A DNA stretch of 64,000 nt from an uncultured Lentisphaeraceae bacterium (lineage in GTDB: Bacteria > Verrucomicrobiota > Kiritimatiellia > RFP12 > DVOR01). A model generated the notes under the pieces. That model did not search any database and had not been told where the DNA came from. It saw nothing but the letters and a program-made list of their open reading frames with translations. Position numbers and translations under genes: made by a program. Below, one piece after another: positions 6,466-60,956 of the stretch (positions are counted from its first letter, which is position 1; each line of letters starts with the position of its first letter). The stretch is taken from NCBI GenBank assembly GCA_949288955.1, contig CASEMS010000002.1, positions 6,490-70,489 on the forward strand, given 5' to 3'.

Positions 6466-6620
6466 CTCAAATCCGTCCTTCGCTCAGGTTGCGGGCCTCC
6501 GCCCACTTCGCCTAGCATTGTAGCAAACTCCCTCCGCCCGTGCACAAACGCCAGCCCCACTCAATGGCCCCCGGGGAGAAGGAAGACTAAGACGACCGCG
6601 CCCAAGGCGGACGCCCCACC

Positions 6621-6715
6621 CGCCGACGCTCGGTGGATCAGCCGCCGACGCAAGGAGACTTAGCCGCCGACGCTCGGTAGATCAGCCGCTGACGCTCGGT
6701 GGATCGGCGGCTGAT
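6621..6715. repeat. 22-bp minisatellite family (GGATCRGCSGCTGAYSCGAGGW-like), ~4 units
   Basis: tandem units cggtggatcagccgccgacg / gtagatcagccgctgacgctcg / gtggatcggcggctgatgg; same family at 16153, 33363, 39326, 49242, 59222. Confidence 0.7.
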
Positions 6716-6731: not shown

Positions 6732-6766
6732 ACCAAGCCTCCAAGCCTCCAACCTTCCAAACTTCC
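6732..6766. repeat. (CCAAGCCTC/CCAAACTTC)n 9-mer microsatellite
   Basis: ccaagcctccaagcctccaaccttccaaacttcc; same motif at 15981-16056 and 29225-29290. Confidence 0.7.
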
Positions 6767-6771
6767 GTTTG

Positions 6772-6850
6772 CGCGGGAGGCGAGGGCGGTAGGGAGCGGT
6801 CAGCGGGCGTCAGCCCGCAGAGCGACCGGCGGAGCCCGCAAGCCCTCCCG
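6772..6850. repeat. 77-nt palindromic module C (copy 1), 9-bp terminal inverted repeats GCGGGAGGC...GCC(C)TCCCG
   Basis: near-identical copies at 15897-15973 and 33257-33333; internal hairpin GCGGGC-loop-GCCCGC. Confidence 0.7.
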
Positions 6851-6872
6851 TTGCGTCTTCGCGGTCAAAACC

Positions 6873-9611
6873 TCAGACGCCGAGGGCGGCGTGGAGGGCG
6901 AGGGCGTTGGGGGCCATCACGCGGGCGGCGCGCCAGGGGCCGAAGTCGTGGAGTTTGGTGACGGCGGCGCACCAACGTTTCAGGGCGAAGTGTTTGTCCC
7001 GGGCGGAGGGGTCGTCCTGTCCCTTCACCTCCAGCACGACGGTCTCGCCCGAGGCGAGGCGCACGATGAAGTCGGGGATGTAGGTGTGGGCGAGGCCTTG
7101 GGAGACGTAGCGGATGCGCAGGCCGACGTGACGGTCGTTGCGGACGTAGGCCGACACCGCGTCCGCCTCCGCGAGCCAGGCGGCGACGGAGCGTTCCCAC
7201 GCGCTGTCGTAGACGGCGGCGGCGATCTGGCTTTTGGGGCCGGTGGGGGTGGGTTCCTTGGTGGTGTGCCAGGTGCGCATCCGGGCGGTGGAGAGGGTGG
7301 GCTGGCGGCTGTCGCGCACGATGGCGAGGTCTTGGCGTTCCTTGGGGGTCAGGTGGTCGAGCAGATGGCGGACGACCTGGCCCATCTGATAGGCGTAGGC
7401 CAGGCGGGCCTCGGGGGAGCCGAGGGCGGCCGTCTGCCAGAAGAGGTTCTCCTGCCAGTGGCATTTGCCGGAATCGATGAAGTCGGCGGCCAGGCGCACG
7501 AGTGCGGCGAAGAGGCGGGGCACGGCCATCTCGCGCCGTTTCCGGGCGAAGGCCGCGCTCTCCAGGAGGGCTTTGGCCATGGTGAAGAGGAGGGTCTGCC
7601 GGCGCGGCGCGGCCTGGGCGATGTCAAGGGTGTAGAGGTCGGCGCGCTCCACCTTCATCCACTCGCCGAGGGTCTGGGCCATCTGGGCGGAGACGGTGAG
7701 GGTCGGCTCCAGAATCAGCTCCGGGACGTCCTTGAGGGAGAGTTCCGGCGCGGCGACGTCGTCGATGCGGAGGATGTTGGGCCAGGCGATCTCGGCGGTC
7801 TCGCGGCCCGGCGCCACGGCGATGGGATAAGTCGGGGCGGGGGGCTCGCCGCCGCCGGCCCCTTCCGTGGGGAGGAAGCGGAAGGGAACGCCAAAGACCT
7901 GCACGTATTCCGGGCGGAGGAGGCCCGTCTCGGGGTCGACGTCGTAACTCACGCGGCGGAGGCCTCGGCCGATGACCTGCTCGCAGAGGAGCTGGCTGGT
8001 GAAGGCGCGCAGGCCGAGGATGTGGGTGACGGTGCGGGCGTCCCACCCCTCCGAGAGCATGGCCACGGAGATGAGGTTGGCGACCGCCGCGCCCGGCTGG
8101 CCTTCCTTGCCCACGGTGGCGACGCGCCTGCGGAGGGCCTCCCCCGCCGCGCCGCTCTTCTCAAGCACTTTGGAATCGATGCGCAGGACGCGCTCGGGCT
8201 CGCACAACGTCTCCGCGCCGCCCAGGGTGGCCCCGCCGCCGGAGAGGAAGTGGCGTTCGACGCGCGCGGCGGTGGTGGTGTTGTTCACCACGCTGATGAG
8301 CACGGGCGGGACGGGGACGCGGCACGCCCGCCAGAGGTCGGCGGTCTTGCGCCAGTCGGCGGCGAGGAGGGAGTAGGCGTTGGCCAGCGCGGGGGGCAGG
8401 GGGGCGGCGGGGTCGGCCGCCTCGTCGATGGCCTCCTTGATGCCCGGCGCCTCGTAGAGGTCGTAGAGGTCGGGGAGGTTCGTCTCGGGGTTGATGGGGC
8501 CGGCGGCGTCGCAGGGCATACGGGGGGTCTTGACCAGTCCGGCCTCGATGCCGTCGTTCAGGCCGAAGTCGCTGACCACCCAGCCGAAGAGGAAGTCCTC
8601 CTTGCTCATCTTGCCCGAGGGGATGAAGGGGGTGGCGGAGAAGTCGTGGCAGCGCAGGATGGGGGCCACGCGGTGGATACGGTCGAGGCCGCCCACCCAG
8701 ACGGTGTGCTCGTCCTTCTCCTCGCCCACGCCGCGGTAGTCGCCGGCCTTGGCCTTGGGCGGGAGGCGCCAGGCGTGGTGGGCCTCGTCGTTGAGGACGA
8801 GGATGCGAGGGGCCTTGGCCAGCTCCGTCCCCAGCACGGCACGGGCGTAGGCGCGGTCGCCCAACGGCCCGCGCTTGTCCACGCCCCGCCGTTTGCGCAC
8901 CTTCTCGGCGTCCTCCCACTGCATGGCCTGCCAATTGAGGATGCGCACGCGCGCCTGCGCCAGGCCCAACTGGAGCGACTCCGGCACCAGGCCGCCGCCA
9001 TACTCCGCGCCGCCCGCGGCGGGATCCAGCCCCGACAGGCGGTCGCGCACCGTGAGGTTGGGCGCCACGACGAGGACATCGCGGCAGAAGCGTTTGTCCT
9101 GGGGGTGGGCGACTTTGTTGCAGGCGTGCCAAGCGATGAGCATGGCCATCACCTTCGTCTTGCCGCCGCCCGTGCAGAGTTTGGTGCAGACGCGCTCGAA
9201 GGGGCCGCCGTCGCCGCGCAGACGCCCCTCGCCCTCGCCCCACAGCCCCTGACGCTCCGCCTCCGGCCCCTCCGTCAGCCAGATGAGCGTCTCGATGGCC
9301 TCCAACTGGCAGAAAAAGGGGCGCGGCTCCATCAACCCCTCCTCCTCCCCCACCCCATGCCACCGCCCCAGCAACTGGCGTGTGACAGGCGTGACGCCCG
9401 GCCAGCCGGCCTCGCGCCAGGCCCGCACCCGCCCGCGGATGACCTCCACCGCGCCGAGGGGCACGAACTCGCCGTCGCCCCGGCTCTTGGTGTTGAACTT
9501 GGTGTAGCCCGGCGCCCGGCGGCCCTCCGTCCTCGTCAGCGAGAGCGTCCCCGGGCGATGCTCCCAGTGCCAGGCCGGCTCGGCGTAGGGACTGTTCAGG
9601 ATCAGGCTCAT
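6873..9611 (-). CDS. res: Type III restriction enzyme Res subunit (SF2 helicase + PD-(D/E)xK endonuclease)
   Basis: 912 aa from MSLILNSPYAEP (GGGAGG SD 8 nt upstream; the ORF track extends further upstream in-frame); Walker A LCTGGGKT, DEAH box LNDEAHH, helicase motif VI, C-terminal PD...EVK nuclease motif (YIPDF...LEVKG); ATGA overlap with mod stop. Confidence 0.9.
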   Translation of the reverse strand: MSLILNSPYAEPAWHWEHRPGTLSLTRTEGRRAPGYTKFNTKSRGDGEFVPLGAVEVIRGRVRAWREAGWPGVTPVTRQLLGRWHGVGEEEGLMEPRPFFCQLEAIETLIWLTEGPEAERQGLWGEGEGRLRGDGGPFERVCTKLCTGGGKTKVMAMLIAWHACNKVAHPQDKRFCRDVLVVAPNLTVRDRLSGLDPAAGGAEYGGGLVPESLQLGLAQARVRILNWQAMQWEDAEKVRKRRGVDKRGPLGDRAYARAVLGTELAKAPRILVLNDEAHHAWRLPPKAKAGDYRGVGEEKDEHTVWVGGLDRIHRVAPILRCHDFSATPFIPSGKMSKEDFLFGWVVSDFGLNDGIEAGLVKTPRMPCDAAGPINPETNLPDLYDLYEAPGIKEAIDEAADPAAPLPPALANAYSLLAADWRKTADLWRACRVPVPPVLISVVNNTTTAARVERHFLSGGGATLGGAETLCEPERVLRIDSKVLEKSGAAGEALRRRVATVGKEGQPGAAVANLISVAMLSEGWDARTVTHILGLRAFTSQLLCEQVIGRGLRRVSYDVDPETGLLRPEYVQVFGVPFRFLPTEGAGGGEPPAPTYPIAVAPGRETAEIAWPNILRIDDVAAPELSLKDVPELILEPTLTVSAQMAQTLGEWMKVERADLYTLDIAQAAPRRQTLLFTMAKALLESAAFARKRREMAVPRLFAALVRLAADFIDSGKCHWQENLFWQTAALGSPEARLAYAYQMGQVVRHLLDHLTPKERQDLAIVRDSRQPTLSTARMRTWHTTKEPTPTGPKSQIAAAVYDSAWERSVAAWLAEADAVSAYVRNDRHVGLRIRYVSQGLAHTYIPDFIVRLASGETVVLEVKGQDDPSARDKHFALKRWCAAVTKLHDFGPWRAARVMAPNALALHAALGV

Positions 9612-12148
9612 CGCGCGGCCTCCCGGGGCGCCCCGTCCTCCGTCAGCGCGAAGACGCGGAGGCTCTCGAAGCCCTTGTCGTCGATGATCTTCACCGCCAC
9701 CTTCCGGTTCTCCCCCGGCCTGAAGGGCAGGCTCTTCGTCCCCTGATAGGCCCGCAGACGCTCCGGCGCGATCGTCCCCCGCAGGGTCGCCTCCAGCCGC
9801 CGCCAGACATCCGCGCCGGGGAAGAGGCACTGCTCCGGGTTCACGCACCGCCCATCGTAGTTGCCATCGACCATCCACATGGCGATGTTCGCCGCGCCGC
9901 GCGAGGTCATCGTCTGCCGCACCGGGTCGTAATAGTCGAAGCCCAGCACCTCCGCCGTCAGCATCCCCTCCGCGTCACGCACCAAGGCCACGTCCGGCTG
10001 CCCCACCAACGTGAAGCTTTGGTTGCGGAACTGCCGCTTCAGCAGGTCGGTCATCTGCAGATCCGTGTTCATCTGCACGGTCAGGACGCGTGCGTAGCCC
10101 ACCTTGCTGCGTGCGAGCGCCTCCGAGGCCTCGGCCGTGAACTGGAAGGCCGCGAAGACGAGCAGGGCCGGGCGGGGGCGCACGTCGTCCGCCTCGTCCA
10201 GCGCGTTGTGCACCACCGCCAGGCTCATCGGCGCCGACGCGCTCCCCAGGCAGACCAACGCCTCCTGCCCCTCCTCCGTCACCCCCCGCGCATGGAACCA
10301 CGTGTGCGCCCCCGAGACCTCCAGCGACCGGAAGCGCAGCCGCTCCTCCCCCGACCCCGTCCGGATCCCCGAGGCCCGCAGCTCCGCCACCCACTCCTCC
10401 AGATTCCGCCCCGCCGCCATCCCCTCCTCCGGCCGCGCCTCCAGCAACGGCTCGATCACCGGCTCCGGCAGCGCCTCCACCGTGAAGGGGCCCGTAACAC
10501 GCACCCGACCCTTCTCGACGATCGGCCGGTCCCACAGCGTCTCCTCCCGCGACGGCACGCCATTGGCGATGTCGCCCAACATCACGTGCGGCACCGTCTT
10601 GTAGACCAGCCCGCCGTCCACACCCCGCCCCTCGTCCGCCAGCTTGTACCAATCGTAAGCCTGCGTAATCAGCCGCCGCTTCGCCAACGCCAAGGCCACC
10701 CGACTCGTGTCGATCGTGATCCAACGCCGCCCCCACTCCTCCGCCACCACCGCCGTCGTCCCACTCCCGCACGTCGGGTCCAACACCAAGTCCCCCGGAT
10801 CCGTCGTCATCAGGATGCAACGTTGGATGACCTCACGCGATGTCTGGACAACATAGACTTTGGAGTCCGCCCGACTCTGTATGCCGCCGACATCATCCCA
10901 GAGGTTCGAGATACTCATCCAGTTGAAATCGTCCAAGTAACGGACATAGTTTAATGTGTTCGCACTGGCTTCCAAACGATTGGCTGCGGCCAACCGTTGC
11001 AATCCTTCCAATGTCGTCTTAAAGGTGCCATTGCCAGGCGAATATTTCCGCCCCCCAAACTCAAACTCGCGCACATCTCCGTTCCCCGCAGAACGGCGAG
11101 ACGTCAAATTGTCTAACCGATACACTCGGCTTCCCGTTGGCCTATCTTCATAAACGAACTTACTCCCTGTTCGTCTCTCCCACTCACTGATTGGCATACG
11201 CTCCCCAGACTCTAATTCTATGTTACGGTACTTACTCGCCCCCTCTCCCCCGAAAGTCTTCTCCTTGAAGAGCTCGTGATACTTTACCTTTTCCCGGTCC
11301 TTCGCATACCAAAGGAGATAGTCTCCTGCACGATCAAGCGTACCAGACTCGTTTCCACTCGTCGTGGTATAGGAAATCATGGAGACGCAATTGTCGGGGC
11401 CGAAGACCTCATCGAGGAGGCAACGGACGCGGTGGACGTTCTCCATCGAGATTTGGACGAAGATGGAGCCGGTGGGGGCGAGGAGGTCGCGCATGAGGAT
11501 GAGGCGGTCGCGGAGGTAGGAAAGGTAACTGTGGACACCCCATTTCCAGGTATCGCGGAAGGCCGTGACCATCTCCGGCTCGGCGGTGAGGTCCTCGTCC
11601 TTGCCGTCCTTCACGTCGCGCTTGTGGATGGAGGGCATGAAGTTGGAGCCGAACTTGATGCCGTAGGGCGGGTCCATGTAGATGCACTGCACCTGGCCCG
11701 CCAGGCGCTCATGGCGGAGCAGGGCGTTCATCACCAGCAGGGAATCGCCCGCGATCAGGCGGTTGGTCCACTGCATGGTGTGGTTGTAGGCATAGATCTC
11801 CTCCGTGCGCAGACGGCGGCGGTCGGCCTCCGGCAGGCCGAAGAGGTCCAGCTGCACCGGGTCCCGGTCTTGGTCGGCGAAGGTGGCTTTGAGGATGCGC
11901 AGGGGATTGACGGCCTCGTGCTGGTGGATGGTGAAGGTCGGCACCTCCACCGCGTCCTCGCCCTTCTGGAACCACACCAGGCGCGGGATGTCGTGCGCGT
12001 CGATTTCATAGACCTCCGGGGACCCCGTCTCACGGACGCCGCCTGTCTCGTTCGCCGCCGGGAGCACGGCGCGTTTGTGCTCCGGGTGCAGATACGTATC
12101 CGCCGCGTCGCCCTGCGGTTCATCGACACCGTGTCTCTTGCCAGCCAT
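9608..12148 (-). CDS. mod: Type III restriction-modification Mod subunit, beta-class N6-adenine DNA methyltransferase with extended C-terminal domain
   Basis: 846 aa from MAGKRHG (GGAGGG SD upstream; ORF track start at 12241 is an upstream in-frame extension); motif IV DPPYG precedes motif I TCGSGTT (beta order); ~280 aa beyond the typical Mod C-terminus. Confidence 0.9.
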   Translation of the reverse strand: MAGKRHGVDEPQGDAADTYLHPEHKRAVLPAANETGGVRETGSPEVYEIDAHDIPRLVWFQKGEDAVEVPTFTIHQHEAVNPLRILKATFADQDRDPVQLDLFGLPEADRRRLRTEEIYAYNHTMQWTNRLIAGDSLLVMNALLRHERLAGQVQCIYMDPPYGIKFGSNFMPSIHKRDVKDGKDEDLTAEPEMVTAFRDTWKWGVHSYLSYLRDRLILMRDLLAPTGSIFVQISMENVHRVRCLLDEVFGPDNCVSMISYTTTSGNESGTLDRAGDYLLWYAKDREKVKYHELFKEKTFGGEGASKYRNIELESGERMPISEWERRTGSKFVYEDRPTGSRVYRLDNLTSRRSAGNGDVREFEFGGRKYSPGNGTFKTTLEGLQRLAAANRLEASANTLNYVRYLDDFNWMSISNLWDDVGGIQSRADSKVYVVQTSREVIQRCILMTTDPGDLVLDPTCGSGTTAVVAEEWGRRWITIDTSRVALALAKRRLITQAYDWYKLADEGRGVDGGLVYKTVPHVMLGDIANGVPSREETLWDRPIVEKGRVRVTGPFTVEALPEPVIEPLLEARPEEGMAAGRNLEEWVAELRASGIRTGSGEERLRFRSLEVSGAHTWFHARGVTEEGQEALVCLGSASAPMSLAVVHNALDEADDVRPRPALLVFAAFQFTAEASEALARSKVGYARVLTVQMNTDLQMTDLLKRQFRNQSFTLVGQPDVALVRDAEGMLTAEVLGFDYYDPVRQTMTSRGAANIAMWMVDGNYDGRCVNPEQCLFPGADVWRRLEATLRGTIAPERLRAYQGTKSLPFRPGENRKVAVKIIDDKGFESLRVFALTEDGAPREAAR

Positions 12149-12347
12149 AAAGGCGCCCTCCACGTCTGTTCCGGATCGGGCGTCCGCTAAGAGCCGTGAG
12201 AGAAACAGACGGGAGGGCATACGCACCACGGCGCATGCCACACCCGAACGTTTGCTCTCTCAATGTTTAGCGGACTTTGATCCGAGCAAATCATTCGTGC
12301 GTGCTGCACGTTGACCCCTGCGGCTACTCCCGCAGGCGATGTATTGT

Positions 12348-15404: not shown

Positions 15405-15850
15405 AACCGCAGATTGCGCGGATTGAGGCGGATTTGGGGGTCGGCTACCGCCGACAGGACTGCCAGGGGGGAGACCACCAAGGACACGAAGGGGTGCACA
15501 GAGGAACACGAAGCACGACGGGGGACACAATCACAAAGGACACAACGGACACAAAGGGGAGCGCGGGCATGGCCCGCGCAGGACGGCCAGGAGGGAACCG
15601 CAGATTGCGCGGATTGAGGCGGATTTTGGGGTCGGCTACCGCCGACAGGACTGCCAGGGGGGAAAGACCACCAAGGGCACGAAGGAGGGCACAGAGGGAC
15701 ACGAAGCACGACGGGGGGACACAATCACAAAGAACACAACGGACACAAAGGGGAGCGCGGGCATGGCCCGCGCAGGACGGCGAGGGAGGAACCGCAGATT
15801 GCGCGGATTGAAGCGGATTTGGGGTCGGCTACCGCCGACAGGACTGCCAG
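15405..15850. repeat. composite tandem repeat, ~191-194 bp unit x2.3 (module A + module B)
   Basis: unit starts at 15405, 15596, 15790 (aaccgcagattgcgcggattgaRgcggattt...); module A has hairpin GTCGGC-TACC-GCCGAC and GCGGATT direct repeats; module B is T-free, purine/C-rich (cacgaag, cacaa motifs), ends in palindrome GCGCGGGC-ATG-GCCCGCGC. Confidence 0.85.
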
Positions 15851-15896
15851 AATGCCTGACAAGTACAGCACGGCGAGAGGGACTCACTTGGGCAGC

Positions 15897-15973
15897 GCGG
15901 GAGGCGAGGGCGGTAGGGAGCGGTCAGCGGGCGAAGCCCGCAGAGCGACCGGCGGAGCCCGCAAGCCTCCCGC
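15897..15973. repeat. 77-nt palindromic module C (copy 2)
   Basis: GCGGGAGGC...GCCTCCCGC terminal inverted repeats; internal GCGGGC-GAA-GCCCGC hairpin. Confidence 0.8.
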
Positions 15974-15980
15974 GCAACGG

Positions 15981-16056
15981 TCAAATCCCCCCAAGCCTCC
16001 AAACCTCCAAACCTCCAAACCTCCAAACTTCCAAACTTCCAAACTTCCAAACTTCC
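15981..16056. repeat. (CCAAACCTC/CCAAACTTC)n 9-mer microsatellite, ~8.5 units
   Basis: ccaagcctcc aaacctcc(aaacctcc)x2 (aaacttcc)x4. Confidence 0.85.
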
Positions 16057-16152
16057 AAACTTCCCGCGCCCCCTTGCGTCTTTGCGGTTCCTTCTAGGAT
16101 AGCACGAACGAGAGACGGGGCACGGCGTTTTTCCTCTGGGGGCTGGCCCTCG

Positions 16153-16220
16153 GAGGATCGGCGGCTGATCCACCCCGGGGCGGCGGCTGATCCACCTTGG
16201 ATTGGCCGCCGATCCAAAGT
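16153..16220. repeat. 22-bp minisatellite family, ~3 units
   Basis: ggaggatcggcggctgatccacccc ggggcggcggctgatccacctt ggattggccgccgatccaaag. Confidence 0.7.
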
Positions 16221-29170: not shown

Positions 29171-29290
29171 TGGAGACTTGGATGCTTGGCCTGCGCTCCG
29201 CGCCCCCCGGCGTCCCGCAGGAGTTCCAAACAGCCAAGCCTCCAAACCTCCAAGCCTCCAAACTTCCAATCAGCCAAGCCCCCAAACTTC
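29160..29290. repeat. 9-mer (CCAAGCCTC/CCAAACTTC) repeat block with one inverted copy followed by direct copies
   Basis: ggaagtttggagacttggatgcttggc (inverted) ... ccaaacagccaagcctccaaacctccaagcctccaaacttccaatcagccaagcccccaaacttcc (direct). Confidence 0.7.
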
Positions 29291-29293
29291 CCC

Positions 29294-32974: not shown

Positions 32975-33256
32975 TGGAACGGCGAGGGAGAGATCACAAA
33001 GGGCACGAAGGGGGACACGGAGGAGCACGAAGCACGACGGGGACACAATCACAACGGGCACAAAGAACACAAAGGGGGCGCGGGCGTGGCCCGCGCGGGA
33101 CGGGATGGACGGTGAGAGGAAACCGCGGATTGCGCGGATTGAAGCGGATTGGGGGTCGGCTACCGCCGACAGGACTGCCAGAGGAAAAGACCACAGAGGG
33201 CACGAAGGGGGACACGGAGGAGCACGAAGTATGGAGGGGGACTCACAACGGGCAGC
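32975..33256. repeat. module B + module A + partial B of the composite repeat (single copy)
   Basis: same modules as 15405-15850: cacgaag/cacaa-rich T-free block ending GCGCGGGCGTGGCCCGCGC, then aaccgcggattgcgcggattgaagcggatt...gtcggctaccgccgac. Confidence 0.8.
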
Positions 33257-33333
33257 GCGGGAGGCGAGGGCGGTAGGGAGCGATCAGCGGGCGAAGCCCG
33301 CAGAGCGACCGGCGGAGCCCGCAAGCCTCCCGC
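33257..33333. repeat. 77-nt palindromic module C (copy 3)
   Basis: differs from copy 2 by a single G>A. Confidence 0.8.
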
Positions 33334-33362
33334 GCAACCTTGCGTCTTTGCGGTTCCCCCAA

Positions 33363-33408
33363 GGAGGATCGGCCGCCGAGCCGAGGAGAATCGGCCGCCG
33401 AGCCGAGA
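33363..33408. repeat. 22-bp minisatellite family, 2 units
   Basis: ggaggatcggccgccgagccga ggagaatcggccgccgagccgag. Confidence 0.65.
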
Positions 33409-33504
33409 TTGCGTCGGCGGCGCCGATGGCGGCGGCGTGGGACTTGGCCTCCCGCTCATGGGCGGCGAGCCGCTCCCGAAGCGACTCCTGCGCCGCGCCA
33501 CCAC

Positions 33505-33819
33505 CGTCGCGTTCAGTTGGGCCAGCAGCTCCTTCGGCGCGGCAAGCAGGGCGGCGGAGTCATGGTTGCCCGCGATGAGGATCAGCCGGCCACACGCGCC
33601 GTCGTTCCGAAGGTCGGCGATGAATTGGTAGTAGCGGCGCTGCGCTGCGGGGGTCGGCTGGCGCACGTCGAAGACATCCCCCGCCACCACCAGCGCGTCC
33701 GGACGCTCCGCGCGGACGAGTCCGCGCAGGAAAGCGAGGAAGGCGTCGTGCTCCTCGCCGCGGTCTTGGTCATGGAGCCGTGCGCCAAGGTGCCAATCGG
33801 AGGTGTGGATGAGCTTCAT
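33505..33819 (-). pseudogene. sbcD: sbcD (Mre11-like nuclease) 5' remnant, ~105 codons, truncated at junction with repeat elements
   Basis: MKLIHTSDWHLG...DALVVAGDVFDV...LILIAGNHDS...LNATVVA matches SbcD phosphoesterase motifs I-III; the reading frame then runs into minisatellite/module C sequence; no sbcC nearby. Confidence 0.65.
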
Positions 33820-33904
33820 GCCACCAGTATAGCACAGCCACCCCCCGTGCCCGGGCACCCGGTGTGCAAGACATCCCGCACACCGCGAGACGCGACGGCG
33901 TGGG

Positions 33905-39237: not shown

Positions 39238-39325
39238 GTCGCATTCCTTGTGAAAGTCGAAACGCGCATAGTATAGCACACGCCCCACGCCCTGACAGAC
39301 CCGGGCGGGCGAGTCCGGGGAGGTT

Positions 39326-39440
39326 CGGCGGCTCACCCAAGGAGGATCAGCCGCTGAGCCGAGGTGGATCAGCCGCTGAGTCAAAGTGGATCGGCCGCCG
39401 AGCCGAGGTGGATCAGCCGCTGAATCAAAGTGGATCGGCC
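39326..39440. repeat. 22-bp minisatellite family, ~5 units
   Basis: ggaggatcagccgctgagccgag gtggatcagccgctgagtcaaa gtggatcggccgccgagccgag gtggatcagccgctgaatcaaa gtggatcggcccc. Confidence 0.8.
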
Positions 39441-39527
39441 CCCGGCCGTCCGGGAGGGCGCGGGGCCTGCGGGTCCGGCCGGTTCCGACCGGGGTGCGCC
39501 GCCCATCTTCCGGCGCGCGAAAAAACG

Positions 39528-49169: not shown

Positions 49170-49184
49170 ACCGGGCATAAAAAA

Positions 49185-49219
49185 GCCCCCGACCGAGCAA
49201 TCGGTCGGGGGCTTTTTTG
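49185..49219 (+). terminator. Rho-independent terminator
   Basis: GCCCCCGACCGagcaaTCGGTCGGGGGC + TTTTTTG. Confidence 0.75.
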
Positions 49220-49241
49220 TACCCTGCGGGCGGGCGTCTGG

Positions 49242-49305
49242 CGGATCGGCGGCTAACCCGAGGTGGATCAGCCGCTGACCCGAGGTGGATTGGCCGCCGA
49301 GCCGT
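49242..49305. repeat. 22-bp minisatellite family, 3 units
   Basis: ggcggatcggcggctaacccga ggtggatcagccgctgacccga ggtggattggccgccgagccg. Confidence 0.75.
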
Positions 49306-59140: not shown

Positions 59141-59164
59141 ACGCCCCGACGACGACATAAAAAA

Positions 59165-59196
59165 GCCCCCGCCATCAACGGCGGGGGCTTTTTTTG
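59165..59196 (+). terminator. Rho-independent terminator after pfk
   Basis: GCCCCCGCCatcaacGGCGGGGGC + TTTTTTTG. Confidence 0.75.
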
Positions 59197-59221
59197 TGCC
59201 CAAGCGCGGCCACCCCGAAAA

Positions 59222-59345
59222 GGATCGGCGGCCGAGACAAAGTGGATCAGCGGCTGACCCGAGGAGGATCGGCGGCCACCCCGAGGTGGATCGGCGGCTG
59301 ACCCGAGGAGGATCGGCGGCTGAGGCAAGGTGGATCAGGGGCCGA
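59222..59345. repeat. 22-bp minisatellite family, ~6 units
   Basis: ggatcggcggccgagacaaagt ggatcagcggctgacccgagga ggatcggcggccaccccgaggt ggatcggcggctgacccgagga ggatcggcggctgaggcaaggt ggatcaggggccgaccggg; the array extends into the 3' end of deoA. Confidence 0.85.
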
Positions 59346-60645
59346 CCGGGAAGGCGTCGGGGAGGGTCGCGGCCACCAACGTGCGGCGAGGGGGCGGGGC
59401 GTCCGCCAAGCGGAAGGCCTTGGCGGCCTCTTCCGCCAAAGCCGAGGCGCGGGCCTCGCCGTCGGCGCAGAGCACGCAGAGCGGCGCCCCCGCCTCGACG
59501 CGCTCGCCCTGCTGGAGGAGGCCATCCACGCCCGCGGCGGGGTCGGGGGTCTCGTCCACGGCCTGGCGGCCCGCGCCCAACGCCAACGCCACGCGGCCGA
59601 TGGCCTTGGCATCCACGTGCGCCACCCAGCCCGCGCACGGCGCGCGCACCGCCACCCGGGCGCGCGCCTCCGGCAGCGGCGCATCCGGGTCGCCCCCCTG
59701 CGCCAGCGTCATCCGGCGGAAGATCGCCGCGGCCTCGCCCGAATCCAAGGCGCGCGCGGCGGCTTGGCGGGCGGCGCCCAGATCCGAAAAGCGGCCCGCC
59801 GCGTGCGCCAGGTGGGCGGCCTCCTCGATGGTCAGCGCGCGGACGTCCCACGGGCCGGCGCCCGCGAGGGTCTCCCGCGCCTCGCGCACCTCCAGCGCGT
59901 TGCCGACGGCGCGCCCGAGGGGCTGATCCATGTCGGTGAGCAAGGCGCGGCAGGTCCTCCCCAAGCGGCGCCCGGTGGCGATCAGCGCCTCGGCGAGGCG
60001 TTTGGCCTGGGGGAGGGTGCCCATGAAGGCGCCGGAGCCGAACTTGACGTCGAAGAGCAGGGTGGAGGCTCCCTCCGCGAGTTTCTTGCTCATGATGGAG
60101 GCGACGATCAGCGGCACGCTCGGCACCGTCGCCGTCACGTCGCGCAAGGCGTAAAGGCGGCGGTCGGCGGGCGCCAGGTCGTCCGTCTGGCCGATCAGGC
60201 AGCAGCCCACCTCGGCCACGATCCGGCGGAAGTCCCCCACCCCCAGGCGCACGTTGAAGCCCGGGATGCTCTCCAGCTTGTCCAGCGTCCCACCCGTCAG
60301 GCCGAGGCCCCGGCCCGAGATCATCGGCACCGCGAGGCCCAACGCCGCGCAGACCGGCGCCAACGGCAGCGAGATCTTGTCCCCCACCCCGCCCGTCGAG
60401 TGCTTGTCGGCCGTCGGCCGGCCGATCCCGTCCCACGCGAGGCAGCGCCCCGAGCGCATCATCGCGTCCGTCAGCGTCGCCGTCTCCCGCGCCGTCATCC
60501 CATTCAGGTAGACGGCCATCAGCCAGGCCGCGATCTGATAATCCGGCAGCGTCCCCTCCGTCACCCCGCGCACCCAGGCGCGCAGGGCCTCGTCGGCGTG
60601 CTCCCGGCCGTCGCGCTTCTCCTCGATAAACCACTGTGGAACCAT
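59335..60645 (-). CDS. deoA: thymidine/pyrimidine-nucleoside phosphorylase
   Basis: 436 aa from MVPQWFIEEKRDG; motifs DKHSTGGVGDK, phosphate-binding and alpha/beta domain. Confidence 0.85.
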   Translation of the reverse strand: MVPQWFIEEKRDGREHADEALRAWVRGVTEGTLPDYQIAAWLMAVYLNGMTARETATLTDAMMRSGRCLAWDGIGRPTADKHSTGGVGDKISLPLAPVCAALGLAVPMISGRGLGLTGGTLDKLESIPGFNVRLGVGDFRRIVAEVGCCLIGQTDDLAPADRRLYALRDVTATVPSVPLIVASIMSKKLAEGASTLLFDVKFGSGAFMGTLPQAKRLAEALIATGRRLGRTCRALLTDMDQPLGRAVGNALEVREARETLAGAGPWDVRALTIEEAAHLAHAAGRFSDLGAARQAAARALDSGEAAAIFRRMTLAQGGDPDAPLPEARARVAVRAPCAGWVAHVDAKAIGRVALALGAGRQAVDETPDPAAGVDGLLQQGERVEAGAPLCVLCADGEARASALAEEAAKAFRLADAPPPRRTLVAATLPDAFPVGP

Positions 60646-60689
60646 GACTCCGCTCCTTTCCCGGCCCCGTCGGCCTAGCCCTATCATAA

Positions 60690-60728
60690 CAAAAAAGCCC
60701 CGCAAGTATTGCTACTTGCGGGGCTTTT
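60690..60728. terminator. bidirectional hairpin terminator (serves tRNA-Thr on minus strand)
   Basis: AAAAAA GCCCCGCAAGTAttgcTACTTGCGGGGC TTTT. Confidence 0.7.
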
Positions 60729-60732
60729 AAGA

Positions 60733-60809
60733 TGGAGCCAACTGACGGAATCGGACCGACGACCTGCGCATTACGAATGCGCTGCTCTACCTAGCTGAGC
60801 TAAGTTGGC
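60733..60809 (-). tRNA. tRNA-Thr (anticodon CGT)
   Basis: 77 nt; acceptor GCCAACT/AGTTGGC; anticodon loop TTCGTAA; T-loop GGTCCGATTCC; encoded CCA. Confidence 0.9.
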
Positions 60810-60956
60810 AGAACGGCGAATAGGATACCAAACGCCCGCCCGAAAGGCAATCCCCTTTTTTCGATCTGCCGCCGAATGTATTTTTTCGCTTGCCTTTTTC
60901 AGAGATTTTGAGATACTTATGCGCATTTACAAGTGCCATCGGAAGGACTGCCAAGG

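What the first reader, a model, noticed from the sequence alone, without database searches (positions are those of the whole stretch)
59222..59345. 22-bp GGATCRGCSGCTGA-type minisatellite family at six loci, always immediately downstream of a terminator or gene end
Arrays of 2-6 tandem 22-bp units (consensus approximately GGATCRGCGGCYGASCCGAGGW) occur at 6621, 16153, 33363, 39326, 49242 and 59222. Each unit contains a short hairpin, TCAGC-c-GCTGA or its complement. The period is not a multiple of 3. Every array sits in a 3' intergenic region: after psd/res, before folP, after the sbcD remnant, after glyS, after the rluA terminator, and after the pfk terminator. The last array runs into the 3' end of deoA. 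This pattern resembles REP/BIME-type elements, which act as mRNA stabilisers, DNA gyrase or IHF binding sites, or RAYT transposase substrates.
Basis: seen in the sequence. Interest (0 to 1): 0.55.

Follow-up and report, generated by a model that had tools for sequence, protein, structure and literature searches.

The report
Dispersed 22-bp palindromic intergenic minisatellite
A gut bacterium of the Kiritimatiellia/Lentisphaerota group carries, about once every 10 kb and only between genes, head-to-tail arrays of a 22-bp unit built around a 17-bp palindrome; the arrays gain and lose units between strains. They resemble the selfish "REP-like" repeats of other bacteria but fail the defining REP tests, and they are not tied to gene ends as first thought.

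Summary
The repeat family is real. Core GGATCRGCSGCYGA gives 30 matches against 0.87 expected. All strong matches lie in six arrays of 2-6.5 units with a 22-bp period.

The claimed 3'-end or terminator association is wrong. Array D (39322-39445) lies between the divergent glyQS and ruvB promoters, and array B lies between the 5' ends of tRNA-Met and folP. Arrays occupy convergent, divergent and co-directional gaps alike. All sit in the 7.9% of the window that is non-coding.

Each unit is a 17-bp near-palindrome with no loop (GGATCRGC-S-GCYGAKCC) plus a 5-bp linker. Single-unit hairpins are no better than shuffles, and there is no base-pair covariation.

Strains with 97-100% identical flanks differ by ±22 or 44 bp and in unit sequence, so these are true VNTRs.

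- No singletons or inverted doublets were found.
- There is no GTAG/CGTC tag.
- No transposase or RAYT appears in about 100 kb sampled.
- There are no matches in GTDB representatives, JGI, IMG/VR, plasmids, phages or Rfam.

Best reading: a lineage-specific, REP-like but non-REP dispersed minisatellite, whose arrays change by slippage or unequal recombination. How it spreads is unknown.

Relatives carry different palindromic arrays with the same 22-23-bp period. This hints at a protein partner.

The parts
6613..6714 (+). Array A: 5 units (the first is degenerate). Linker variant is CGCTCGGT. It lies between the 3' end of a 1001-aa gene (-) and the 5' end of psd (-). An 8-bp repeat array and an 89-bp hairpin element follow it.
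   Evidence: context; 4-6 units among strains
16153..16215 (-). Array B: 3 units in the opposite orientation to the other five. It lies in the 1.1-kb repeat-rich gap between the 5' end of tRNA-Met (-) and the 5' end of folP (+).
   Evidence: tRNAs; folP
33362..33407 (+). Array C: 2 units, directly downstream of a truncated sbcD pseudogene (-) and next to the 89-bp hairpin element. It is upstream of a prepilin-type gene (-).
   Evidence: strain alignment (2-3 units, nested deletions of sbcD)
39322..39445 (+). Array D: 6 units (the terminal ones are degenerate). It lies between the divergent glyQS (-) and ruvB (+) promoters, so it borders two 5' ends.
   Evidence: alleles of -22 bp (L011) and +44 bp (L014)
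39270..39298 (-). Predicted sigma-70-type promoter of glyQS (CTGTCA-17-TATACT, with TG). Array D starts 24 bp upstream of its -35 hexamer.
49243..49300 (+). Array E: 3 units, between the rluA intrinsic terminator and the tRNA-Arg promoter. Three metagenome contigs end inside it.
49181..49220 (+). Bidirectional intrinsic terminator of rluA (A-tract, GC hairpin, T-tract). Array E begins about 23 bp after the T-run.
59206..59347 (+). Array F (the reported finding): 6.5 units in the convergent pfk (+) / deoA (-) gap. All central bases are G. The last unit overlaps deoA and provides its TGA stop (59335-59337).
59160..59197 (+). Bidirectional intrinsic terminator after pfk. On the minus strand it also ends the deoA transcript, so array F lies in the deoA 3' UTR but outside the pfk transcript.

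Best explanation
This is a lineage-specific, non-coding, dispersed minisatellite (a multi-locus VNTR family). The 22-bp unit is a 17-bp near-palindrome with no loop, GGATCRGC-S-GCYGAKCC, plus a 5-bp linker.

Shown:
- Units occur only as head-to-tail arrays, and only in non-coding DNA, in intergenic gaps of every type.
- Arrays change within the species by whole-unit gain and loss, block duplication and unit-sequence replacement, much faster than their flanks.
- Terminal units are degenerate and interior units are homogenised.

Inferred:
- Arrays expand and contract by slipped-strand mispairing or unequal recombination, helped by the ability of neighbouring palindromic units to pair with each other.
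- New loci are seeded rarely by copying, because whole units including linkers are shared between loci. The enzyme responsible is unidentified.
- The family persists as selfish or near-neutral DNA in permissive gaps. It is not a terminator or a 3'-end device.
- Any host effect is more likely at the DNA level than through RNA hairpins. The likeliest form is a set of dimeric-protein binding sites phased about two helical turns apart.
For: - Statistical reality and restriction to arrays.
- All six arrays lie in the 7.9% of the window that is intergenic, with no bias by gap type. Two further loci of the same family lie outside the window: L003 19545-19668 in a convergent gap, and L045 4565-4735 (8 units) in a co-directional gap.
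- VNTR behaviour is seen at several loci. Locus D alleles are 105, 127 and 171 bp, with flanks 179/180 and 175/180 identical while aligned array columns are only 96% and 89% identical. Loci A, C and G are also polymorphic.
- Three contigs break inside array E, which implies many copies.
- Degenerate end units and homogeneous central bases within an array: all C in D, all G in F.
- Inter-unit pairing is predicted.
- Hairpin selection is not supported.
- The family was not found elsewhere. The tandem-unit pattern gave only 2 chance-like two-copy hits each in GTDB representatives and JGI metagenomes, and none in IMG/VR, plasmids or phages.
- A congener has no array in 15.8 kb, including between pfk and deoA.
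Against: - The dispersal mechanism is not identified.
- Palindrome positions are far more conserved than linker positions. This implies a constraint, such as recognition by a protein or enzyme, that a purely neutral model does not explain.
- Relatives carry unrelated palindromic arrays with the same 22-23-bp period. This suggests a shared mechanism or partner protein rather than mere junk.
- Only about 100 kb of the species was sampled, so a RAYT or other mobilising gene may lie elsewhere.
Confidence: 0.55

Rival explanations
1. The arrays are functional, phased binding sites for a dimeric dsDNA-binding protein, such as a nucleoid-associated or chromosome-organising factor or a domesticated transposase. 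Each 17-bp palindrome would be one dimer site. The 22-bp spacing (about two helical turns) would place the dimers on one face of the helix for cooperative binding. The protein and its site would co-evolve, so each species has its own palindrome.
For: - The palindromes run straight through the centre with a single central base (5-1-5, extended to 8-1-8), which suits dsDNA dimer recognition and not a hairpin.
- The half-site variants TCAGC and TCGGC assort roughly independently, with no compensatory covariation.
- Palindrome positions are near-invariant while linkers vary.
- Relatives hold different palindromes at the same 22-23-bp period in intergenic DNA: L046 CGAAACCCTAAGGGTTTCG x3, L048 AAGGGTAGCTACCCT x4, L044 AATGTAAGTTACATT x3 and TTTGA[A/T]TCAAA x6.
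- Array D sits just upstream of two promoters.
Against: - No candidate protein was identified.
- Copy number and unit sequence vary freely among near-identical strains, which argues against strong selection on any one array.
- Arrays lie in gaps of every type, including after terminators.
- The background frequency of such arrays in other bacteria could not be calibrated here.
Confidence: 0.22
2. This is a genuine REP/REPIN-type family mobilised by a RAYT (an IS200/IS605-like HUH tyrosine transposase) encoded elsewhere in the genome. The enzyme would act on single-stranded hairpins formed by one unit or by two neighbouring units.
For: - The family is extragenic, abundant, palindromic and species-specific, like REPs (PMC3116915, PMC3733652).
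- Adjacent units can pair into longer stems, as in a REPIN. Core variants c and c' are exact reverse complements.
- Tandem REP arrays exist in P. fluorescens SBW25.
Against: - There is no GTAG or CGTC tag (definition).
- There are no singletons or inverted (HH/TT) dimers. Only head-to-tail arrays occur, which are absent or rare in REP families.
- The palindrome has no loop and single-unit folding is weak.
- There is no covariation.
- No Y1 transposase appears among all genes of the window or in the extra loci.
Confidence: 0.13
3. The arrays act at the RNA level as 3'-UTR hairpins that stabilise upstream mRNAs or support termination.
For: - Array F lies in the deoA 3' UTR, between the stop codon and the terminator.
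- Arrays A and C follow gene ends.
- Whole array D folds better than shuffles, z = -3.5.
Against: - Arrays B and D are in 5'-5' gaps.
- E and F lie beyond the rluA and pfk terminators.
- Array orientation does not follow transcription: A and C are antisense to their flanking genes.
- Array F has z = -1.2, and single units are not better than shuffles.
- There is no covariation and no T-runs.
- Rfam gave no match.
Confidence: 0.07

Closest known systems
REP / REPIN elements with RAYT transposases (Enterobacteria, Pseudomonas; GTAG- and CGTC-tagged REP superfamilies)
   Same: Short palindromic units that are strictly extragenic, at high density and species-specific. Copy number varies among strains, and higher-order tandem clusters exist.
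   Different: - Units carry no GTAG or CGTC tag.
- The palindrome has no loop or bulge.
- Units are never single or in inverted doublets, only in head-to-tail arrays with a fixed 22-bp period.
- No RAYT was found in the DNA sampled.
- There is no covariation supporting a hairpin.
BIMEs of E. coli (mosaics of REPs with conserved linkers; IHF and gyrase sites)
   Same: Arrays of palindromic units with conserved short linkers in intergenic DNA. They co-cluster with other short repeat motifs at loci A, B, C and L045.
   Different: BIME units alternate in orientation, with a period of about 100 bp for a pair. Here all units in an array point the same way, 22 bp apart. Protein binding was not tested.
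SMAG repeats of Stenotrophomonas maltophilia (22-25-nt GTAG palindromes used for MLVA typing)
   Same: Similar unit size. Loci carry a variable number of palindromic units and can be used as strain markers (PMC2613905).
   Different: SMAGs carry GTAG. They occur mostly as singles or as head-to-head or tail-to-tail dimers, and they form genuine stem-loops.
MIRU-type dispersed minisatellites (Mycobacterium) / bacterial VNTR loci
   Same: One repeat family is present as direct tandem arrays at many intergenic loci, with unit-number polymorphism between strains. Slippage-type dynamics apply.
   Different: As I recall, MIRUs are 40-100 bp, non-palindromic and lie inside operons, often in phase with the flanking ORFs. 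Here the unit is 22 bp and palindromic, and it occurs in any type of gap.
Iteron or centromere arrays (e.g. 22-bp plasmid iterons, lambda ori palindromic iterons, F sopC)
   Same: Direct arrays of protein-sized, partly palindromic sites phased at about two helical turns.
   Different: Those are single loci next to rep or par genes on plasmids or phages. Here at least 8 chromosomal loci lie among housekeeping genes, no rep or par gene is adjacent, and there is no sequence match to plasmids or phages.

Membership tests
REP (GTAG/CGTC-tagged repetitive extragenic palindromes) | A conserved GTAG or CGTC tetranucleotide at one end of the unit | tested here: not met
   The consensus GGTGGATCRGCSGCYGASCCGA contains no GTAG/CTAC or CGTC. 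GACG appears only in the linker variant of array A. Definition from PMC3733652.
REP (GTAG/CGTC-tagged repetitive extragenic palindromes) | A 20-40-bp imperfect palindrome that forms a stable stem-loop | tested here: not met
   The unit is a 17-bp near-palindrome with one central base. Unit folding gives -1.9 to -4.9 kcal/mol, with z between -1.3 and +0.2 against shuffles. Pairing shows no covariation: 76.3% paired against 76.5% in shuffles.
REP (GTAG/CGTC-tagged repetitive extragenic palindromes) | Abundant and confined to extragenic space | tested here: met
   The window holds 6 arrays in 64 kb, all within the 7.9% that is intergenic. There are 2-3 further loci outside the window.
REP / REPIN | Units occur as singletons or inverted doublets (REPINs; HH or TT dimers), with head-to-tail arrangement rare | tested here: not met
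   There are no singletons. Every array is head-to-tail with a 22-bp spacing. Compare.
REP / REPIN | A cognate RAYT (Y1 HUH transposase) gene in the genome, flanked by the repeats | tested here: inconclusive
   No PF01797 or any transposase domain was found among the window ORFs or the annotated genes of loci L003-L038 and L045. The rest of the genome could not be searched.
BIME | REP units in alternating orientation separated by defined linker motifs, with IHF or gyrase binding | tested here: not met
   All units of an array share one orientation. Only the inner 7-11 bp of the core appears in either orientation. Protein binding cannot be tested here.
Dispersed minisatellite / multi-locus VNTR (MIRU-like) | The same unit in direct tandem arrays at several loci, with unit-number polymorphism between strains | tested here: met
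   Among strains, locus D has 5, 6 or 8 units counting degenerate end units (105/127/171 bp), A has 4-6, C has 2-3 and G has 6-8 as counted. Flanks are 97-100% identical.
Intrinsic terminator / 3'-UTR stabiliser hairpin | A stable GC hairpin at transcript 3' ends (with a U-tract for terminators), oriented with the gene | tested here: not met
   Arrays lack T-runs. E and F lie downstream of bona fide terminators. B and D are in 5'-5' gaps. Orientation is independent of the flanking genes.
Plasmid/phage iterons or partition centromeres | A single array adjacent to a rep or par gene on a mobile replicon | tested here: not met
   There are at least 8 chromosomal loci among housekeeping genes. No rep or par gene is adjacent. 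BLAST found no match in plasmids or phages.
CRISPR | Repeats separated by unique spacers of similar length, with cas genes nearby | tested here: not met
   The 'spacer' is a conserved 5-8-nt linker, and no cas genes are present.

The most novel reading that the evidence does not exclude
Kiritimatiellia-type bacteria may share an undescribed system in which a co-evolving DNA-binding or DNA-processing protein recognises loop-less palindromes. These would be laid out, or generated, as direct arrays with a fixed period of 22-23 bp (about two helical turns). Each species would have its own palindrome, and in this species the system has proliferated to about one array per 10 kb. The arrays would then be a new class of chromosomal protein-binding or mobile array, not REPs.
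Probability: 0.15. Interest if true: 0.7.

Novelty: new variant of a known kind. Interest (0 to 1): 0.38.

Why it matters
As far as the full-text searches here showed, no interspersed repeat family has been described for Kiritimatiellia/Lentisphaerota. This one breaks the usual REP rules: it has no tag, no hairpin loop and no inverted pairs, and it occurs only in direct arrays.

Practical consequences:
- The arrays break metagenome assemblies of this species.
- They offer ready-made MLVA markers for strain tracking in gut metagenomes.

Conceptually, relatives carry 22-23-bp palindromic arrays with different sequences. If that recurrence reflects a shared mechanism, it could reveal a new repeat-generating or repeat-binding system.

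If not, this is one more lineage-specific selfish repeat. In that case it is useful to know, but ordinary.

Tried and rejected
- **Public collection scans.** The two-unit pattern was scanned against GTDB representatives, JGI metagenomes and IMG/VR. Only isolated two-copy duplications turned up in unrelated MAGs, which I judged to be chance.
- **BLAST of array D against plasmids and phages.** No match.
- **Rfam.** At gathering and permissive thresholds, only tRNAs and terminator-driven sub-threshold hits appeared.
- **Search with translated arrays** for spurious ORFs. This gave two hits. One yielded a new locus, L045, but no transposase.
- **Empty-site comparison.** The contig L037 diverges inside the rluA terminator and looks like a rearrangement or chimera, so it was uninformative. 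Congeners L041, L046 and L047 have different gene orders at pfk-deoA and glyQS, so no precise empty site or target duplication could be defined.
- **GATC/Dam or SeqA idea.** GATC is not unusual in the window: 262 observed, against 181 expected from base composition and 371 from a Markov model. Dropped.
- **Resemblance to the DnaA box (GTGGAT) and the KorB operator (AGCSGCT).** These were recalled from memory. The matches are partial and were not pursued.
- **Orientation bias.** Six of 7 contiguous arrays share an orientation, which is not significant (two-sided p of about 0.13).
- **CRISPR, iteron and terminator readings.** Rejected (see the membership tests).

Full report
**Observation**

Tandem Repeats Finder reports arrays with a 22-bp period at five places:
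- 6620-6705 (3.9 copies)
- 33362-33407 (2.1)
- 39337-39440 (4.7)
- 49243-49297 (2.5)
- 59206-59347 (6.5)

Reading the sequence shows a sixth array of 3 units at 16153-16215, in the opposite orientation.

The core GGATCRGCSGCYGA, with at most 1 mismatch, matches 30 times against 0.87 expected, and none of 100 shuffles comes near. A position-weight scan built from the units places every hit of 14 bits or more inside the six arrays. The one exception is a marginal 14.4-bit hit in coding DNA. The family therefore has no singletons and exists only as head-to-tail arrays.

**Anatomy of the unit**

Phased on GGATC, the unit is GGT-GGATC-RGC-S-GCY-GA-SCC-GA. This is a 17-bp near-palindrome, GGATCRGC-S-GCYGAKCC, with a single central base, followed by a 5-bp linker.

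- Palindrome positions are nearly invariant, and linker positions vary more.
- Variation inside the palindrome is two-state: A/G at the left, C/G at the centre and T/C at the right.
- The asymmetric core TCAGCCGCCGA and its exact reverse complement TCGGCGGCTGA are both common. The other asymmetric combination is rare (38 against 2 units).
- The inner core therefore occurs in either orientation within a constant frame.
- The central base tends to be uniform within an array: all C in D and all G in F.

**Folding**

- Single units fold weakly, at -1.9 to -4.9 kcal/mol as DNA, no better than shuffles.
- Whole arrays fold through pairing between neighbouring units, with z = -3.5 for D and -1.2 for F.
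- On 47 distinct units, the 7-pair hairpin is 76.3% paired against 76.5% in column shuffles.
- The one variable pair reads GU 17, GC 11, AU 10 and A·C 9.

The symmetry is thus a property of the consensus. There is no evidence that base pairing is maintained.

**Organism**

Proteins of the window occur in NCBI and ENA chicken-gut-type assemblies. A member of the PFK cluster is named Candidatus Spyradenecus faecavium, which NCBI places in Lentisphaerota. Close homologues are labelled Kiritimatiellia. The window is 69% G+C.

**Context**

Pfam, tRNA, promoter and terminator scans, plus gene calls on orthologous contigs, give the following:

| Array | Position |
|---|---|
| A | Between the 3' end of a 1001-aa gene (-) and the 5' end of psd (-) |
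| B | Between the 5' ends of tRNA-Met (-) and folP (+) |
| C | Just after a truncated sbcD pseudogene (-) and upstream of a prepilin-type gene (-) |
| D | Between the divergent glyQS (-, start 39237) and ruvB (+) genes, 24 bp upstream of the predicted glyQS -35 hexamer |
| E | Between the rluA terminator and the tRNA-Arg promoter |
| F | In the convergent pfk/deoA gap, beyond the bidirectional pfk terminator and overlapping the deoA stop codon |

Intergenic DNA makes up 7.9% of the window and holds all six arrays. By gap type, arrays occupy 1 of 2 convergent, 2 of 3 divergent and 3 of 16 co-directional gaps of at least 60 bp. The claimed link to 3' ends or terminators is therefore refuted. Array orientation also does not follow the flanking genes.

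**Population dynamics**

Orthologous contigs from many ENA samples carry arrays at the same loci but in different states.

- At locus D the alleles are 105, 127 and 171 bp. Flanks are 179/180 and 175/180 identical, while aligned array columns are 96% and 89% identical. The long allele contains a duplicated multi-unit block of different core types.
- Locus A has 4-6 units and locus C has 2-3.
- An array outside the window, between GH2 and MlaD (L003 19545-19668), shows 3-6 perfect units.
- Array F in L003 has the same length but a different unit order.
- Array E is invariant in the six contigs that span it, but three other contigs end inside it.
- A search with translated arrays found another locus, L045, with 8 units downstream of argG.

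Terminal units are degenerate and interior units are homogeneous. This is the signature of slippage or unequal recombination.

**Distribution**

- A two-unit pattern scan of GTDB species representatives and JGI metagenomes returned only isolated two-copy duplications in unrelated MAGs. IMG/VR returned nothing.
- Plasmid and phage BLAST gave nothing, and Rfam gave nothing beyond tRNAs and terminator-driven noise.
- High-GC contigs from relatives carry no copy of the family in 13-16 kb each: L041 (PFK 90% identical), L046 (GlyRS 92%) and L047 (GlyRS 87%). The L041 pfk-deoA gap instead holds a radical-SAM gene.
- The family therefore appears restricted to this species-level lineage. The source genome itself seems absent from the searchable DNA collections.

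**Mobilising genes**

No Y1 (RAYT) or other transposase domain is present in any window ORF tested. None appears in the annotated genes of about 40 kb of additional DNA from the species. The rest of the genome could not be searched.

**Comparison with known families**

REPs are defined by four features (PMC3116915; PMC3733652):
- a stem-loop-forming palindrome of 20-40 bp
- a terminal GTAG or CGTC tag
- organisation as singletons or inverted dimers (REPINs), with head-to-tail dimers absent or rare
- association with RAYT genes

This family meets only the ecological criteria: it is abundant, extragenic and lineage-specific. It fails the tag, stem-loop and organisation criteria. The RAYT criterion is inconclusive.

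It does meet the definition of a dispersed minisatellite or multi-locus VNTR. It differs from MIRUs, as I recall them, in unit size, palindromy and context. Iteron, centromere, CRISPR and terminator readings fail on context.

**A lead beyond the finding**

Relatives carry different intergenic arrays with the same architecture:

| Locus | Unit | Copies | Period |
|---|---|---|---|
| L046 | CGAAACCCTAAGGGTTTCG | 3 | 22 bp |
| L048 | AAGGGTAGCTACCCT | 4 | 23 bp |
| L044 | AATGTAAGTTACATT | 3 | 22 bp |
| L044 | TTTGA[A/T]TCAAA | 6 | 23 bp |

In the last array the central base flips between units, as C/G does here.

In the relatives' loci, I looked at intergenic tandem repeats with periods of 16-30 bp that are not multiples of 3. 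All five had a period of 22 or 23 bp, and four of the five were palindromic. I could not calibrate this against unrelated genomes.

It suggests a clade-wide mechanism or a co-evolving protein partner. Loop-less palindromes phased at two helical turns fit dsDNA recognition by a dimer better than they fit hairpins.

**Verdict**

The best-supported reading, at about 0.55, is a lineage-specific, REP-like but non-REP dispersed minisatellite.

- Its arrays turn over by slippage or unequal recombination (shown).
- It spreads rarely by an unidentified copying mechanism (inferred).

The rivals are:
- a functional phased protein-binding array (0.22)
- a true RAYT-mobilised REP family (0.13)
- an RNA-level 3'-UTR element (0.07)

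Novelty is a new variant of a known kind, and interest is moderate.

Noticed in passing
window 33420-33830 (-); L009-L014 orthologous regions: There is an sbcD pseudogene. The window keeps the SbcD N-terminus (MKLIHTSDWHLG...), but the gene is truncated at array C and the repeat cluster. Other strains carry nested deletions of it. SbcCD cleaves DNA hairpins, so its decay could be linked to tolerance of palindromic repeats. This is speculative.
   Followed up: partly
window 6766-6854, 15890-15978, 33250-33338: An 89-bp element occurs in three copies, two of them 99% identical. It folds into one long hairpin (-55.7 kcal/mol, z = -3.4). This MITE- or REPIN-like element lies next to 22-bp arrays A, B and C, and looks more REPIN-like than the 22-bp units themselves.
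   Followed up: partly
window 6733-6766, 15991-16064, 29226-29291: Arrays of an 8-bp unit (CCAARCYT / TCCAAACT, up to 8.4 copies) occur in three intergenic gaps, two of them beside 22-bp arrays. They are reminiscent of cyanobacterial STRR heptamer arrays.
   Followed up: no
window 15405-15850 and 32985-33240; L045 4770-5100: A repeat of about 194 bp (2.3 tandem copies at 15405) contains a GTCGGCTACCGCCGAC hairpin and CACAAAGGA-type low-complexity runs. It recurs next to arrays B, C and the L045 array, so several repeat families form mosaic intergenic islands.
   Followed up: no
L046 6746-6806; L048 544-627; L044 6689-6754 and 20815-20930: Relatives with 45-71% G+C carry unrelated intergenic arrays with a 22-23-bp period and loop-less palindromic cores. 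L046's island also has 7-, 9- and 11-bp arrays and long inverted AGAGAAC/GTTCTCT runs.
   Followed up: partly
window 59335-59360 (deoA 3' end): deoA is about 6 codons longer than its ortholog in L041, which is 78% identical. Its TGA stop lies in the last, degenerate array unit. More generally, A-type units carry TGA on both strands, and the 22-bp period rotates through all three frames. Three such units therefore place stops in all six frames of a 69% G+C genome.
   Followed up: partly
window 6873-12241 (-): An 877-aa N6/N4 DNA methyltransferase sits next to a 1001-aa protein with no Pfam hit. This may be a type III-like restriction-modification pair. The length of the second protein varies (912-968 aa) among strains.
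   Followed up: no
L004 7544-8261 vs window 60646-60956: One strain has a glycogen phosphorylase/RRM/ankyrin block upstream of proS, in place of pfk-deoA-tRNA-Thr. This indicates a rearrangement breakpoint near the tRNA-Thr gene.
   Followed up: no
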